7,949 nucleotides of DNA from a virus (Duplodnaviria > Heunggongvirae > Uroviricota > Caudoviricetes), in the IMG/VR virus record IMGVR_UViG_2695420523_000004. The stretch is one strand, 5' to 3'. Positions 2,450 to 7,949 of this stretch are shown here, in pieces (positions within the stretch are counted from its first letter, which is position 1; each line of letters starts with the position of its first letter). The notes beneath the pieces are model-generated. The model searched no databases and was not told the origin of the DNA. It saw only the letters and a list, made by a program, of their open reading frames with translations. Made by a program: the position numbers and the translations under genes.

Positions 2450-2790
2450 CAGTGAGTGACCTCTTCAAAGGTACAGTTAAAATCGGTATACATGGCATTA
2501 TCCGAAATGCTCCACTCCCTGCAGACAACCCGGACAGTCCTGTTGTGTTTTGGCGGACGCCACAAAAAAGCACGAATCCCGGCATGACGGGATAAAAAAC
2601 TGTCCAGCGCGGCACGGGAATATTCATCTGTGACACGAAATACCGGTTTAAACGTTTTCAGATCCGCATTCAGACCACCAGCCCGTCGCTGTTCATATCC
2701 GTCACCAAACTTTACCGTAATAACTGATGGCTTTCGTGTCGTCTCCATCCCCTCACGGGGGATCCAGTTAAAAACTTCAGGCTCAGGCAC
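2449..2790 (-). CDS. M: Minor tail protein M
   Basis: Contains VKFGDGYEQR...FLWRPP, matching the lambda gpM pattern RFGDGYSQR...FLWTPP from memory. Preferred start is GTG at 2790-2788 with a GGAGGA Shine-Dalgarno 7 nt upstream, overlapping the H stop by 8 nt. Alternative ATG starts at 2805 or 2835 lack an SD. Confidence 0.82.
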   Translation of the reverse strand: MPEPEVFNWIPREGMETTRKPSVITVKFGDGYEQRRAGGLNADLKTFKPVFRVTDEYSRAALDSFLSRHAGIRAFLWRPPKHNRTVRVVCREWSISDNAMYTDFNCTFEEVTH

Positions 2791-5700
2791 TGTACAATCC
2801 TCCATCCCGACGCGATGACTGCATAATTGACACAACCCTGCTGTCGATCAGATCCACCAGTCCCCTGGCTGAGCGCGCATCTATCTCGCCATTGCTCCCT
2901 TGATTCTGAATGCTGATGTGATACACGGGAGAATAAACAACCCCCCCGCCACTATTCACATTGCCAATGGCTCTGACCCCAAGAGAGCCGTCCGCTGCCC
3001 GTGTCAGTGGCATGATAGCTTCAGGCCCGGCCTCGCCCATCAGCCCGGCACCTTTCGCAAAAGCAAAATACGTCGGTGTATCCACAATAGTGTTACTGTA
3101 AGCACTCAGATTTGCCGATGTGTAAACACCACCTTTTGCGTTTGCCACCGCCCCCGAAATCCATCCGCCGACCGTACCAAGCCACCCTCCGGCACCGGAG
3201 AGTGACTTCAGTCCGTTAACAATGGCCGCATTCATCAGAATTTTTGAAACTTCCCGGAGAACTGAACTCCCCCAGTTTCTCCAGTCCACAACATTTCCGG
3301 CCAGTGCATCGGAAATATTTGATACCAGTCCGTCCATAGTGGAAACGACAGCATCTGCCGCCTGCGAAGCATAATCGGTGGCACTGTCTGCCCAGTTGGT
3401 CAGCCCCTCCTGGAGTCCTGCATTCCAGTTATTACGTAAAGCATCGGCCTTTGCATAATAATCCTGCTGATCGCTGAGACGCTCTTCCAGATATTTTTTA
3501 TTCAGTTCTTTCTCCTGTTTCCACAGGGCTTCTTCAATTTCTCCGGCCTGATACTGTCTCAGAAGCTCGTTATTTTTCTGCTCAAACTCATGCCGGATAC
3601 TCCACATTTCCTGGAGTCGTTCACGCATCCGTGAGCCTTCACCATATCCCAGTAACTGCGCGTCGTCAGATGCCCGGGCACTGGCATTACTGTCCGCCAG
3701 GCTGCTTTCATACGCAGCAAGCTGCTCACGAATCTTTTTCTGGTCGATGAGTGCTGCATTCTGCAAAAGCGTTTTTTTCTGCGCTTCTGACAGGGTTGAT
3801 AATTCGCCCTGACTGACCTGATATTTCATCTTAGCCAGTTCAGTATTCTGCCCTGCCAGTGCTATTTGTTCTTTTTGCTGTTTAATCAGCCGTTTATAAA
3901 TATCTTCTGTTTTTTCCGCTTCGGTCTTTTTATGCGCTTTGGGTTTATTTGCCTGGTTATTTCGCCAGGCATCCAGTGAGTTATTGATATAATTCTGTCT
4001 GGCTGTCTGATACGCCTCTCCCACAAAGCCGAGATCATCCGCAGCATAACCCAGGCGGGCACGCTCACGGGCTTCCCCCTTCAGGCGGGACAGAGCCAGT
4101 TCGCGCTCGCTGTTATTCAGTGCAGTCTGCGGTTTATCATCCAGGGTTGCCTGTGGTAGCCGTAACGGTACATTCACCAGCCCCTGTCGCTGCTGAAGTA
4201 ATTCATTACCGAGCCCGAGAAGGCGATTAAACTCGGTATGCTGCCCATTCATGATCAACAGGGACTGATACGCTTTGTTTTGTTCCGCGGCCTGTTGACG
4301 GATCAACGCCACCCGTCGCTCCTCCAGCCCGGCAAGCACATCCTGAATGGATTGCGCTTTGCCCTGCATTTGTGTGAGACGGGACTGTTCAACTGCCAGT
4401 TGATTTGTTGCTTCTGCAAGCCCTTCTGTGACAGTTTTTACCGACGTCATGTGGTTAATCATAAAACCGTTATCGGTTGTCCAGCCCGGGTTTGCCAGCA
4501 CATACTGATAGCCAGCAATTTTTTCCTGTAAGGATTTAATCTTACTTTTCTGCTCGTCAATTAACCTGTTTTGCTCATCAAGTGCCTGCCGCGTCTTTTC
4601 CTCATTATCTGACGCTTCAGGAAGCGACATTGCCGACGTTTTCTGGCGAATTTCGTCGATTGTTGCGGCATACTGGCGTGCAGATTCTCTGGCCTGCTCC
4701 TGATTCTGATACATCGTGTACCAGGCCGTCGCCCCCAGCATGACGAGTCCCGGCACACCACCAACCAACCCCAGCGCACCACTTAACAGACGACTCCCCA
4801 CTGACGTGACAGTATTCAGCGTTGTCTGTGCCGCTGTTCTGGCCGCAATATTACGGGTAAGTGACGCCTGAGCAGCTGTCAGCTTCGCTTCTGCTGCGGC
4901 CTGCCTTTCGGTACCGCGAGCAGCAACAACCGCCTGTTGCGCACGATAAACCGCCGCACGCGCCCTGGCGGTTGCTATCTGTGTCCCCCGAAGTTGCGCT
5001 TCAGCAAGAGCCACTTCGTTTCTGGCTGCAGTAATTAATCCGGCAGTTGCAGATCCAGCAGACGACGCCATATTGCCAAAATATCGGGCTACCCCGACGG
5101 CAACCAGAGCACCGGCAGCGGTTGCCACGGTATCAATATTGCCTGCAAGACCATTCAGCACCCCGGAGAGCGTCTTCGTCACTCCGCTTGCCTCGTTCGC
5201 ACCACCAACCCAGGCCATAAAGGCGTTTTCAACTTTGGTTGCAGAGGATGAAACCGTATCAGGCATTGCTGCATATTCATCACGCAACGCCCCAAGCTGA
5301 CTAATCAGTGCAGGAACAACCTTATCGGCGGTTAGTTTTCCGTTATCCGCCATGGCCTTCAGATCCTTACGGGCAACGCCCATTCCCGCAGCCAGCGCAC
5401 GAATAACACGATCACCGCTCTCATTCACCGAGTTAAACTCTTCACCGCGCAGCACTCCCTGCGCCAGTGCCTGACTGAACTGCGTGATCACCGAACTGGC
5501 TTCTGCTGTACTGGCACCGGATAATTTCAGGCCCGTGGAGATCGCCTCGGTGACTTTCAGTACCTCCTCAGAACTGTAACCATACTCCCGCATGGAAGCT
5601 GCAGAACGGGCAAAAAGGCTGGCGTTATCAGAAAACGCCGTCCCCGTTCTCTGGCTGATCGCCATTAATTCACGTTGTGATACCTGAAAATCATCACTGG

Positions 5701-6016
5701 ACTGTGAGGCCTGCTTCAGACGGGCATTTACTGAATTCCACTCATCGGCGAGAGAAATAAGATGACCGGTAGCAAAAGCCCCGGCAAATGCCCCCGCCAT
5801 ATTCAGTGCCGAAGATTTAGCTGTATTTATCTGATCCGTCACTTCTGCCAGTGCACGCCGCATTTCACGGGATGCAGCAGCGGACTGCCGGCCTCCGTTC
5901 TGCATGGTACGGTAGTAATCCTGCCCCATACGCGAAGCCCGGGAGATCTCTGACTGGAATGACCGGGAATTTGCCGAGATTTTAATAATCAGTTCACGTA
6001 ATGTCGCCACACTCAT
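2783..6016 (-). CDS. H: Tail tape measure protein (gpH-like), 1077 aa
   Basis: Single long ORF between the G-T chaperone and M. Ala/Gln-rich, coiled-coil-like central region and a Gly-rich C-terminal part typical of tape measure proteins. Position is conserved in siphovirus tail operons. Confidence 0.92.
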   Translation of the reverse strand: MSVATLRELIIKISANSRSFQSEISRASRMGQDYYRTMQNGGRQSAAASREMRRALAEVTDQINTAKSSALNMAGAFAGAFATGHLISLADEWNSVNARLKQASQSSDDFQVSQRELMAISQRTGTAFSDNASLFARSAASMREYGYSSEEVLKVTEAISTGLKLSGASTAEASSVITQFSQALAQGVLRGEEFNSVNESGDRVIRALAAGMGVARKDLKAMADNGKLTADKVVPALISQLGALRDEYAAMPDTVSSSATKVENAFMAWVGGANEASGVTKTLSGVLNGLAGNIDTVATAAGALVAVGVARYFGNMASSAGSATAGLITAARNEVALAEAQLRGTQIATARARAAVYRAQQAVVAARGTERQAAAEAKLTAAQASLTRNIAARTAAQTTLNTVTSVGSRLLSGALGLVGGVPGLVMLGATAWYTMYQNQEQARESARQYAATIDEIRQKTSAMSLPEASDNEEKTRQALDEQNRLIDEQKSKIKSLQEKIAGYQYVLANPGWTTDNGFMINHMTSVKTVTEGLAEATNQLAVEQSRLTQMQGKAQSIQDVLAGLEERRVALIRQQAAEQNKAYQSLLIMNGQHTEFNRLLGLGNELLQQRQGLVNVPLRLPQATLDDKPQTALNNSERELALSRLKGEARERARLGYAADDLGFVGEAYQTARQNYINNSLDAWRNNQANKPKAHKKTEAEKTEDIYKRLIKQQKEQIALAGQNTELAKMKYQVSQGELSTLSEAQKKTLLQNAALIDQKKIREQLAAYESSLADSNASARASDDAQLLGYGEGSRMRERLQEMWSIRHEFEQKNNELLRQYQAGEIEEALWKQEKELNKKYLEERLSDQQDYYAKADALRNNWNAGLQEGLTNWADSATDYASQAADAVVSTMDGLVSNISDALAGNVVDWRNWGSSVLREVSKILMNAAIVNGLKSLSGAGGWLGTVGGWISGAVANAKGGVYTSANLSAYSNTIVDTPTYFAFAKGAGLMGEAGPEAIMPLTRAADGSLGVRAIGNVNSGGGVVYSPVYHISIQNQGSNGEIDARSARGLVDLIDSRVVSIMQSSRRDGGLYSA

Positions 6017-6026
6017 TCTCCGGACG

Positions 6027-6048
6027 AAAAAAAACCGCCGAAGCGGTT
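6027..6048 (-). terminator. Intercistronic hairpin (AACCGC-TTCG-GCGGTT) followed on the minus strand by a T6 tract, 10 nt upstream of the H start codon
   Basis: Inverted repeat at 6033-6038 and 6043-6048 with a UUCG tetraloop on the coding strand. A-run at 6027-6034 on plus gives the U-tract on minus. Lies in the 40 nt gap between the T stop (6057) and H ATG (6016). Confidence 0.35.
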
Positions 6049-6056
6049 ATGTTGAC

Positions 6057-6744
6057 TCACTGAGACACTATTAAAAGCGCGTTTTCCAGTCCGGCAAATG
6101 GATCTGAAGCGCCTTCTGTCTGCTCCTTCTCCCACTGAAGAAGCGCATCATTCAGTGACACTTTGACCCCCTGCGCACCGTAAACAGCTGAAACAATCTG
6201 GGCAGCCCGGAAATCAGCCCGTTCGTCCCCCAGCGGGCTGAACCTGTCAAATTCTGCCCACATCATGATTTCTGATGCGGACATTTCCCGGCGTAACTCT
6301 GACAATGTGCGCCCCATCCTGAGCGCCAGCATCATCAGAAAACGCATCCCCGGAAGCGCTACTTTTTTTTAACCTCGCCGGCATCACTGATCAGTTCCAG
6401 AGACTGCCGAAGAAGCCGCGCATGCACCGGGCCATACACGGCAATCACCTGTTCACGATCATCCTCTGAAAATACGGGTTGCAGTCCGGTATCACACAGA
6501 ACATCAATGAACAGTTCAACATCTGCCTCCAGATTTCGGCGGGCGCGCTCCGCAACGGATAACGGTGTCTCATCATCTTTTGCTTTAACGATCTCCTGCC
6601 AGCGCAACCAGGCTTCTGCAGAAGGTTCCCGTAACACAACCGTTGCTCCCTCCCATTCAGGCACATCAACGGTTTTATGGCGAAACCCCGACATCGTTGC
6701 CAGTGCCAGATTACGGATATTTTTAGTCATCACATCCATCCTCA

Positions 6745-6745
<1 letters not shown>
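6057..6745 (-). CDS. T: Tail assembly chaperone G-T fusion, made by -1 programmed ribosomal frameshift
   Basis: The T reading frame (6057-6347) is in the -1 frame relative to G. Slipping at A_AAA_AAG (6368-6362) gives ...GEVKK-K-V-A-L-P-G-MRFLMM... with no intervening stop. This is the conserved G/GT arrangement of long-tailed phages. Confidence 0.85.
6359..6745 (-). CDS. G: Tail assembly chaperone G
   Basis: 128 aa ORF immediately downstream of V (TAATG overlap), ending ...GEVKKK-stop. The true start may be ATG at 6730, which has a better-spaced GAGG. Position and the frameshift partner identify it. Confidence 0.85.
6362..6368 (-). other. Slippery heptamer A_AAA_AAG for the -1 programmed frameshift, directly followed by the G stop codon TAG
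   Basis: Plus-strand T8 run at 6363-6370 reads as A8 followed by G on the coding strand. The frame arithmetic was checked codon by codon. Confidence 0.8.

Positions 6746-7949
<1,204 letters not shown>

What the first reader, a model, noticed from the sequence alone, without database searches (positions are those of the whole stretch)
6057..6745. G/G-T tail chaperone pair with an A_AAA_AAG -1 frameshift site abutting the G stop codon
The T ORF is exactly in the -1 frame of G, and the heptamer A_AAA_AAG sits at the last two codons of G, immediately before TAG. This reproduces the conserved programmed frameshift that sets the G to G-T ratio in long-tailed phages, with a different slippery sequence from lambda's G_GGA_AAG. 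The stop codon directly after the heptamer may act as the pausing element. The T ATG at 6347 is unlikely to be used independently.
Basis: partly seen in the sequence, partly recalled or inferred. Interest (0 to 1): 0.5.

Follow-up and report, generated by a model that had tools for sequence, protein, structure and literature searches.

The report
Phage tail chaperone G/G-T frameshift site
This is the usual programmed -1 ribosomal frameshift that lets a tailed phage (here a common HK97-like E. coli prophage) make a tail-assembly chaperone and a longer fusion version from one gene pair; a 66%-identical relative with the same signal has already been shown to frameshift, so it is real but ordinary.

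Summary
On the minus strand, G (6730..6359; Pfam Phage_TAC_1, 2.7e-58) ends GTT AAA AAA AAG TAG. The T reading frame (to 6057; Pfam Phage_tail_T, 2e-19) is the -1 frame of G. That frame is closed by a TAA at 6371-6369, so the only place a -1 shift can join G to T is the heptamer A_AAA_AAG (6368-6362). The fusion reads ...GEVKKK|VALPGMRF (224 aa).

The HK97 homologue gp13/gp14 is annotated "translated due to a -1 frameshift". Phage BP-4795 has a G-T that is 66% identical and the same AGA AAA AAG TAG. Exactly that cassette gave 7% frameshifting in E. coli (Antonov 2013). Sharma 2014 lists an E. coli prophage tail-chaperone cluster, A_AAA_AAG_25, as a true case.

Across 23 diverged relatives, an in-frame A_AAG is present in 22, and the stop codon abuts it in 15. 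The T-frame ATG is often absent. I found no conserved downstream RNA structure or Shine-Dalgarno element. The idea that the stop codon acts as a pause is plausible and has comparative support, but it is untested.

One correction: G most likely starts at 6730, not 6745. RefSeq annotates G and T as two separate genes. Interest is low.

The parts
6359..6730 (-). Gene G: tail assembly chaperone, 123 aa plus the TAG stop. An alternative upstream ATG at 6745 would give 128 aa.
   Evidence: Pfam PF06222 Phage_TAC_1, 2.7e-58. PDB 2OB9, the HK97 tail assembly chaperone, 4.6e-49. RefSeq annotates a 372-nt CDS, WP_000164661.
6362..6368 (-). Slippery heptamer A_AAA_AAG in the G frame (P-site AAA, A-site AAG). 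It is part of an A8 run at 6370-6363.
   Evidence: The same heptamer sits at the same position in 10 other diverged lineages. It is present in 79 of 80 near-identical IMG/VR loci.
6359..6361 (-). TAG stop of G, directly 3' of the heptamer. It is a candidate 'shifty stop' pause.
   Evidence: A stop abuts the AAG in 15 of 23 family lineages. Its role is inferred and untested.
6369..6371 (-). TAA in the -1 (T) frame. It closes that frame upstream, so the productive shift window is exactly the heptamer.
   Evidence: the last -1 frame stop is at 6371-6369 and the overlap is 10 nt.
6057..6362 (-). T segment read in the -1 frame after the slip: GTA at 6362-6360 (Val) through the TGA at 6059-6057, 101 aa. 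It includes the ATG at 6347 that the ORF finder uses.
   Evidence: Pfam PF06223 Phage_tail_T, 2e-19. Translation. The Met at 6347 is not conserved in relatives.
6057..6730 (-). G-T fusion coding region, complement(join(6362..6730, 6057..6362)), with base 6362 read twice. The product is 224 aa.
   Evidence: PHROG 14766 matches residues 1-220 of a 224-position profile, 1.8e-91. It is 149/224 identical to the phage BP-4795 fusion.
6745..7500 (-). Upstream neighbour: major tail protein with a C-terminal Ig-like domain. RefSeq gives a 705-nt CDS, which would place its start near 7449 (my inference).
   Evidence: Pfam Ig_2 and Phage_TTP_11 hits. Annotations.
2783..6016 (-). Downstream neighbour: tail tape measure protein, 1077 aa.
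   Evidence: Pfam Phage_HK97_TLTM 7.3e-93, TMP_3, Tape_meas_lam_C.

Best explanation
The locus encodes the tail assembly chaperone pair of an HK97-like siphovirus prophage of E. coli.

Most ribosomes translate G (123 aa) and terminate at the TAG at 6361-6359. A minority, probably a few percent by analogy with the homologue, slip back one nucleotide on A_AAA_AAG. The tRNA-Lys molecules re-pair from AAA-AAG to AAA-AAA. Those ribosomes then read GTA GCG CTT... and make the 224-aa G-T fusion.

By analogy with lambda, many copies of G and the G part of G-T coat the tape measure protein, the T domain recruits the major tail protein, and neither product ends up in the virion. This functional step is inferred, not shown here.

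The signal appears to be minimal: the slippery heptamer plus the abutting stop codon, with no conserved RNA structure or Shine-Dalgarno stimulator.

- **Shown here:** sequence anatomy, family membership and conservation of the site.
- **Shown by others on a 66%-identical homologue:** -1 frameshifting at about 7% in E. coli.
- **Inferred:** the ratio in this phage and the role of the stop codon.
For: 1. **Anatomy.** The heptamer fills the only productive shift window.
2. **Families and gene order.** G is PF06222 and T is PF06223, with the order major tail, G, T, tape measure.
3. **Annotated homologues.** HK97 gp13/gp14 is annotated 'translated due to a -1 frameshift'. mEp234 and Burkholderia phage KS9 are annotated likewise.
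4. **Fusion family.** PHROG 14766 matches the whole predicted fusion.
5. **Experiment on a homologue.** Antonov et al. [quoted passage not shown] That cassette is found exactly in phage BP-4795, whose fusion is 149/224 identical to this one.
6. **Prior listing.** Sharma et al. 2014 (PMC4066793), Table S4, lists cluster A_AAA_AAG_25 (53 genes, ECs1801 tail assembly chaperone) as [true].
7. **Comparative data over 23 lineages at 28-70% identity.**
   - The shift-site codon is AAG preceded by A in 22. Lys codons in this window's genes are AAG only 28% of the time.
   - The T frame is always the -1 frame and stays open for about 100 codons.
   - The Met at the T ORF start is not conserved.
8. **No start signal for T.** No well-spaced Shine-Dalgarno sequence precedes ATG 6347.
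Against: - There is no direct protein or ribosome-profiling evidence for this particular prophage.
- RefSeq and most phage records annotate G and T as two independent CDS.
- The A8 run could also allow some transcriptional slippage, which would give the same protein.
- A conserved in-frame ATG (the M of FLM, about 12 nt downstream of 6347) is present in all relatives. Low-level internal initiation therefore cannot be formally excluded from sequence alone.
Confidence: 0.9

Rival explanations
1. The fusion is made mainly by transcriptional slippage. RNA polymerase adds one extra A while copying the A8 run (6370-6363), which produces an mRNA subpopulation with G and T in one frame. The resulting protein is identical to the -1 frameshift product.
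For: An A8 homopolymer is present. Antonov 2013 notes that poly-A tracts can slip during transcription and that efficiency rises with run length, from 7 to 11 As, in another gene family.
Against: - Family members have A runs of only 3 to 7 at the same site (GCA AAG, GGA AAG, GAA AAG, AGA AAA AAG), yet keep the same -1 arrangement.
- The A6 BP-4795 cassette still gave 7%.
- The paper cites slippage-prone runs as more than 7 As, so A8 is marginal. It could contribute a minor share here.
Confidence: 0.06
2. G and T are two independent genes, as annotated in RefSeq. T would be translated from its own ATG at 6347, or from the conserved ATG about 12 nt downstream, possibly by termination-reinitiation after the G stop. 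The heptamer would be incidental.
For: RefSeq and several phage records annotate two separate CDS. An ATG lies 12 nt after the G stop, a geometry that could allow coupling.
Against: - The ATG at 6347 has no spaced Shine-Dalgarno sequence.
- That ATG is replaced by ACN, GTN, ATT or AAT codons in many relatives.
- The shift-site AAG preceded by A is conserved across 22 of 23 lineages.
- A reporter showed real frameshifting in the homologue.
- HK97 curators annotate a fusion, and fusion-length proteins form their own PHROG.
- In lambda, the frameshift is required to make the T-containing protein (Levin et al. 1993, title cited).
Confidence: 0.03
3. The site is a decayed or non-functional remnant. 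The prophage is cryptic, and the arrangement is inherited but no longer used.
For: Some relatives have disrupted G genes (L019, L031, L033). In E. coli 203740 an IS66 element lies just upstream of the tail genes. One IMG/VR copy has A7 instead of A8.
Against: In this window every tail ORF from the major tail protein to I is intact with strong Pfam matches. Near-identical sequence occurs in induced or isolated phages (vB_EcoS-640R1, phi467, Evi) and in 901 of 5426 complete E. coli genomes.
Confidence: 0.01

Closest known systems
Phage HK97 gp13/gp14 tail assembly chaperone pair (NC_002167; gp13 structure PDB 2OB9)
   Same: Same Pfam families for both parts, same gene order and the same -1 relationship. 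Protein identity is about 60-64%. The fusion is annotated as a -1 frameshift product.
   Different: The HK97 site reads cgG GAA AAG in the zero frame, an imperfect heptamer that relies on A_AAG. It lies 5 codons before the G stop rather than abutting it. HK97 also carries the moron gene 15 between T and H, which is absent here.
Stx-phage and O157-prophage tail chaperone pair (phage BP-4795 ORF65/66; GeneTack Phage_TAC cluster; Sharma 2014 cluster A_AAA_AAG_25, ECs1801)
   Same: Same families, the same A_AAA_AAG heptamer and a TAG stop directly after it. Fusion identity is 149/224. The BP-4795 cassette was measured at 7% -1 frameshifting in E. coli.
   Different: BP-4795 has an A6 run (AGA AAA AAG) where this window has A8 (GTT AAA AAA AAG). 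The junction residues differ (KKVARPEIRF versus KKVALPGMRF). BP-4795 has no ATG at the T ORF start position.
Phage lambda G/G-T
   Same: Same logic and gene position. The T domain belongs to the same Pfam family, PF06223. The product ratio is set by a -1 frameshift near the 3' end of G.
   Different: Lambda G belongs to a different Pfam family (PF06894, Phage_TAC_2), and BLASTP finds no similarity. The lambda heptamer is G_GGA_AAG, 5 codons before the stop. The lambda G:G-T ratio is reported as about 30:1.
E. coli dnaX and IS3/IS150-family A_AAA_AAG frameshift sites
   Same: Identical slippery heptamer decoded by tRNA-Lys.
   Different: Those sites use a Shine-Dalgarno-like element and/or a stem-loop or pseudoknot as stimulators. 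No conserved equivalent is seen here. In dnaX the shifted frame terminates early; here it extends the protein.

Membership tests
Tailed-phage tail assembly chaperone G/G-T programmed -1 frameshift (Xu, Hendrix & Duda 2004 class) | Two ORFs lie between the major tail protein gene and the tape measure gene. | tested here: met
   The order is major tail (6745-7500), G, T, tape measure (2783-6016), all on the minus strand.
Tailed-phage tail assembly chaperone G/G-T programmed -1 frameshift (Xu, Hendrix & Duda 2004 class) | The second ORF is in the -1 frame of the first and overlaps its 3' end. | tested here: met
   The T frame is the -1 frame. The overlap window is 10 nt, bounded by TAA 6371-6369 and TAG 6361-6359.
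Tailed-phage tail assembly chaperone G/G-T programmed -1 frameshift (Xu, Hendrix & Duda 2004 class) | A slippery sequence lies in the correct register inside the overlap. | tested here: met
   A_AAA_AAG at 6368-6362 is in the X_XXY_YYZ register.
Tailed-phage tail assembly chaperone G/G-T programmed -1 frameshift (Xu, Hendrix & Duda 2004 class) | The arrangement is conserved in relatives despite sequence divergence. | tested here: met
   Across 23 lineages at 28-70% identity, all have a -1 frame T of about 100 codons and 22 have an in-frame A_AAG.
Tailed-phage tail assembly chaperone G/G-T programmed -1 frameshift (Xu, Hendrix & Duda 2004 class) | The fusion protein is actually produced at a low fixed ratio and is required for tail assembly. 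| not testable with these tools
   The only evidence is by proxy: 7% in a reporter for the BP-4795 homologue cassette. Nothing is available for this prophage itself.
Pfam PF06222 Phage_TAC_1 (HK97 gp13-like chaperone) | Score above the Pfam gathering threshold over the full domain. | tested here: met
   195.7 bits against a cutoff of 25, covering profile positions 1-124 of 124. PDB 2OB9 matches at E 4.6e-49.
Pfam PF06223 Phage_tail_T (lambda T-like domain) | Score above the Pfam gathering threshold. | tested here: met
   70.2 bits against a cutoff of 25.9, covering profile positions 1-69 of 73. Lambda T hits the same model at 54.1 bits. Pairwise BLASTP against lambda T is not significant.
Pfam PF06894 Phage_TAC_2 (lambda gpG family) | Sequence match to the lambda G family. 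| tested here: not met
   The window's G hits only PF06222. Lambda G hits only PF06894. BLASTP between the two gives E 4.9. The window's G is analogous to lambda G in position and role but is not a member of its sequence family.
dnaX/IS3-type stimulated -1 PRF signal | A Shine-Dalgarno-like element about 6-17 nt upstream and/or a stable stem-loop or pseudoknot about 5-9 nt downstream of the heptamer. | tested here: not met
   - The GAGG at 6376-6373 is only 4 nt from the heptamer and is not conserved in relatives.
- The alifold consensus over 15 relatives is -5.5 kcal/mol with no local hairpin.
- Folds of the window alone give z -2.46 (82 nt) and z -1.05 (121 nt).
- Sharma 2014 reports no Shine-Dalgarno element for cluster A_AAA_AAG_25 and a hairpin no more stable than average.

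The most novel reading that the evidence does not exclude
The stop codon that abuts the A_AAG is a selected stimulator, a -1 'shifty stop'. While the A site waits for a release factor, the P-site tRNA-Lys slips back by one nucleotide, as in 'hungry-codon' one-tRNA frameshifting, which needs no RNA structure. In this HK97-like chaperone family that would replace RNA structure. It would also tie the G:G-T ratio to release-factor activity (RF1 for TAG here).

Comparative hints:
- A stop abuts the AAG in 15 of 23 lineages.
- It abuts in all three lineages, six sequences in total, whose site is only the tetramer A_AAG (GCA AAG TAA).
- Members with the stop further away mostly have a full or near-full heptamer.
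Probability: 0.3. Interest if true: 0.35.

Novelty: already known. Interest (0 to 1): 0.1.

Why it matters
The practical value is for annotation. In 901 of 5426 complete E. coli genomes this pair is annotated as two separate genes, 'phage tail assembly chaperone' and 'phage tail assembly protein T' or 'DUF4035'. It should be annotated as G plus a ribosomal-slippage G-T fusion.

Scientifically it adds nothing to the established G/G-T paradigm. The one modest open point is whether the stop codon that so often abuts the A_AAG in this family acts as the stimulator. That would be a clean natural example of a -1 'shifty stop' without RNA structure.

Tried and rejected
- **Downstream stimulatory RNA structure.** The 82 nt after the heptamer fold with z -2.46 (5 of 200 shuffles do as well), and a 121-nt window gives z -1.05. 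The stable hairpin GCGCUC-AGGAUG-GGGCGC starts about 37 nt downstream, too far to act, and it lies in the conserved LALRxGR codons. RNAalifold on 15 relatives gave only -5.5 kcal/mol and no local helix. Rejected.
- **Upstream Shine-Dalgarno stimulator.** GAGG lies 4 nt upstream, which is too close, and it is not conserved. Rejected.
- **Direct similarity to lambda G and T.** BLASTP was not significant. The T relationship rests on the shared Pfam model. G is in a different family from lambda G.
- **NCBIfam.** No model hits the fusion.
- **IMG/VR relatives.** All 80 loci were about 96-100% identical in DNA (G protein 99-100%), so they say nothing about conservation under divergence. The genome-contig scan supplied the diverged set.
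- **Heptamer counts.** The raw AAAAAAG count is not above chance. Only its placement and conservation are.
- **Literature.** The text of Xu et al. 2004 was not located in the library searches and is known here only through citing papers.
- **Not run, because the answer was already clear.** The large protein searches, structure prediction and fold search.

Full report
**Observation.**
All relevant genes are on the minus strand. Reading that strand, the G ORF ends ...GGC GAG GTT AAA AAA AAG TAG. The codon positions are GTT 6373-6371, AAA 6370-6368, AAA 6367-6365, AAG 6364-6362 and TAG 6361-6359. The heptamer A_AAA_AAG (6368-6362) is in the X_XXY_YYZ register of the G frame and directly abuts the stop. 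The 96-aa T ORF (ATG 6347 to TGA 6059-6057) lies exactly in the -1 frame.

One further detail sharpens the case. The -1 frame carries a TAA at 6371-6369. It is therefore open for only two codons before the G stop, and the heptamer occupies the single position where a productive -1 shift is possible.

On its own the heptamer is not statistically unusual. AAAAAAG occurs twice in the window against 1.35 expected. In-frame canonical heptamers occur at 9/2378 = 0.0038 in the window's genes, which is the random rate. What exceeds chance is the placement and, above all, its conservation in relatives.

One correction is needed. G most likely starts at ATG 6730 (123 aa), not 6745.
- RefSeq and phage records annotate a 372-nt CDS.
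- The Pfam match starts at residue 6 of the longer ORF.
- A GAGGA lies about 7 nt upstream of 6730.
- Homologues align from that Met.

**What it is.**
The window is the tail module of an HK97-like siphovirus prophage of E. coli.
- The genes, in order, are a major tail protein with an Ig-like C-terminus, G, T, a 1077-aa tape measure protein (Phage_HK97_TLTM, 7.3e-93), then M-, L-, K- and I-like proteins.
- G is Pfam PF06222 Phage_TAC_1 (2.7e-58). It matches the solved HK97 tail assembly chaperone 2OB9 at 4.6e-49.
- T is PF06223 Phage_tail_T (2e-19), the model that lambda T also hits.
- Lambda G belongs to a different Pfam family (PF06894) and shows no BLASTP similarity to this G. The pair is therefore 'G-like' by position and role, and HK97 gp13-like by descent.
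- The whole predicted 224-aa fusion matches PHROG 14766, a family of fusion-length tail proteins, over residues 1-220 at 1.8e-91.
- Near-identical DNA occurs in 901 of 5426 complete E. coli genomes, always chromosomal. It also occurs in isolated or induced phages such as vB_EcoS-640R1, phi467 and Evi.
- RefSeq annotates two separate CDS there: 'phage tail assembly chaperone' and 'phage tail assembly protein T' or 'DUF4035'.

**Comparative evidence.**
The HK97 record annotates gp13 plus a joined CDS 'translated due to a -1 frameshift'. mEp234 and Burkholderia phage KS9 are annotated likewise.

I collected 28 diverged loci from bacterial genomes at 28-70% identity, plus several phages. I then analysed the G stop, the -1 frame and the slip motifs.

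Three loci have disrupted G genes. The remainder collapse to 23 lineages, and all of them have a -1 frame T of about 100 codons. Their shift sites are as follows.

| Shift site (zero frame) | Lineages | Codons between the site and the G stop |
|---|---|---|
| A_AAA_AAG | This window; Serratia; Brenneria; Pectobacterium; two Symbiopectobacterium (S. purcellii and a MAG); Xenorhabdus khoisanae; an Enterobacter MAG; an Enterobacterales MAG; Kosakonia sacchari; the Stx-phage group | 0 |
| A_AAA_AAG | Xenorhabdus yunnanensis; Burkholderia singularis | 8 and 10 |
| A_AAA_AAA | Burkholderia phage KS9 | 11 |
| G_GGA_AAG | mEp506 | 1 |
| G_GAA_AAG (imperfect) | HK97 group; Kosakonia quasisacchari | 5 |
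| G_GAA_AAG (imperfect) | ENT39118; Leclercia/Pseudescherichia group | 1 |
| A_GAA_AAG | Phytobacter | 0 |
| N_GCA_AAG (tetramer A_AAG only) | Klebsiella, Pantoea and Erwinia groups | 0 |

- The shift-site codon is AAG preceded by A in 22 of the 23 lineages. Lys codons in this window's own genes are AAG only 28% of the time.
- The stop codon abuts the AAG in 15 of 23.
- The residue at the position of the T ATG is Met in some relatives and Thr, Val, Ile or Asn in others (PGTFF, PGVKF, PEIRF, PLNFF). T therefore cannot rely on that start codon.
- In the window the ATG is preceded by CCGGGG with no spacing, which is not a usable Shine-Dalgarno sequence.

**Experimental evidence from the literature.**
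Antonov et al. 2013 (PMC3711429) found a 'phage tail assembly chaperone' cluster of 41 frameshifted genes similar to HK97. They measured 6% and 7% frameshifting in an E. coli GST-MBP reporter.

[quoted passage not shown]. That string occurs exactly in phage BP-4795. The BP-4795 G-T fusion is 149/224 identical to the one predicted here, and it has the same A_AAA_AAG-TAG architecture.

Sharma et al. 2014 (PMC4066793), Table S4, lists the E. coli prophage cluster A_AAA_AAG_25 (53 genes, ECs1801 'tail assembly chaperone') as a true frameshift case. It reports no Shine-Dalgarno element and a predicted hairpin no more stable than the local average.

The Atkins et al. 2016 review summarises the lambda model:
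- G and G-T are made at about 30:1.
- G binds the tape measure protein.
- T binds the major tail protein.
- Neither protein is in the virion.

**Mechanism.**
The best-supported reading is a -1 programmed ribosomal frameshift on A_AAA_AAG that yields G plus a few percent G-T.

I found no conserved stimulator. The local fold downstream is only mildly better than shuffles: z -2.46 for 82 nt and z -1.05 for 121 nt. Its stable hairpin begins about 37 nt away, inside the conserved LALRxGR codons. RNAalifold on 15 relatives gives -5.5 kcal/mol with no local helix. The GAGG 4 nt upstream is too close and is not conserved.

Published kinetics describe a second, structure-independent route in which a single P-site tRNA slips while the A site is unoccupied (PMC6771820; PMC9307594). 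A stop codon waiting for a release factor would mimic that state. The family pattern fits: the stop abuts in 15 of 23 lineages, including every tetramer-only member. But lineages are few, relatedness is not corrected for, and no experiment separates the stop from the heptamer. I put this at about 0.3.

**Rivals.**
- **Transcriptional slippage on the A8 run.** It would give the same protein and may contribute slightly here. It cannot be the family mechanism, because A runs of 3-7 occupy the same site in relatives and the A6 cassette still gave 7%.
- **Independent translation of T.** This is contradicted by the missing Shine-Dalgarno sequence, the non-conserved ATG, the conserved slip motif and the reporter data. 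A second ATG (the M of FLM) is conserved, so trace internal initiation cannot be excluded from sequence alone.
- **A decayed remnant.** This is unlikely, because all tail ORFs here are intact and the module occurs in phage isolates.

**Comparison and novelty.**
The element is a member of the tailed-phage G/G-T frameshift class. All sequence-testable defining features are met, and production of the fusion is not testable here. More specifically, it belongs to the HK97 gp13/gp14 family.

It differs from HK97 in heptamer and in distance to the stop, and from lambda in the G family and heptamer. It matches the Stx-phage BP-4795 version in both heptamer and abutting TAG. That version has been tested experimentally, and an E. 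coli prophage tail-chaperone cluster with the same heptamer has been catalogued as a true case. I therefore rate the finding as already known.

The finding is ordinary, and its main practical use is correcting annotations that list G and T as separate genes.

Noticed in passing
window 6033-6048 (minus strand), with the T run extending to about 6027: A terminator-like hairpin, AACCGC-TTCG-GCGGTT followed by T8, lies between the T stop (6057) and the tape measure start (6016). HK97 and mEp234 records annotate putative rho-independent terminators at the equivalent place just before gene H, there after the moron gene 15, which is absent here. One such match is also what shuffled sequence gives (mean 1.0).
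   Followed up: partly
L112 (IMG/VR UViG_2531839448_000005): One of 80 near-identical IMG/VR copies has A7 instead of A8 at the slippery run (GTTAAAAAAAGTAG). That puts downstream reading into the +1 frame rather than the T frame. It is either a homopolymer sequencing error or an inactivating indel.
   Followed up: no
window 6730-6745: Three in-frame ATGs occur at the start of G (6745, 6739, 6730). The first overlaps the major tail gene's TAA as TAATG. Annotation, the Pfam alignment, Shine-Dalgarno spacing and homologues all favour 6730.
   Followed up: yes
L002 (ON470580.1, phage vB_EcoM-606R7), locus 1541-2214: This record annotates three 'tail assembly chaperone' CDS (372, 138 and 207 nt) instead of two. 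That suggests an indel or sequencing error that splits the T region in that partial genome.
   Followed up: no
L019, L031, L033 (Leclercia, Candidatus Symbiopectobacterium, Xenorhabdus bakwenae): The G homologues are truncated or frame-disrupted (G of 114, 45 and 70 codons, with no A_AAG near the stop). These are probably decaying prophages.
   Followed up: no
L001 1-1766 (E. coli 203740, NZ_CP025913): An IS66 element (tnpA, tnpB, tnpC) lies immediately upstream of the tail completion gene of this prophage, next to a partial hypothetical CDS. That copy is likely defective.
   Followed up: no
window 2342, 2569, 2599 (minus strand; genes L and M): In-frame T_TTT_TTC (gene L) and T_TTT_TTG and T_TTT_TTA (gene M) heptamers are present. 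The overall in-frame heptamer rate in the window equals random expectation (0.0038), so these are probably incidental.
   Followed up: partly
window 7485-7492: A G8 run on the plus strand (C8 on the coding strand) lies in the 5' extension of the long major-tail ORF. It would be upstream of the start implied by RefSeq's 705-nt CDS, near 7449. It was only noted as a homopolymer.
   Followed up: no
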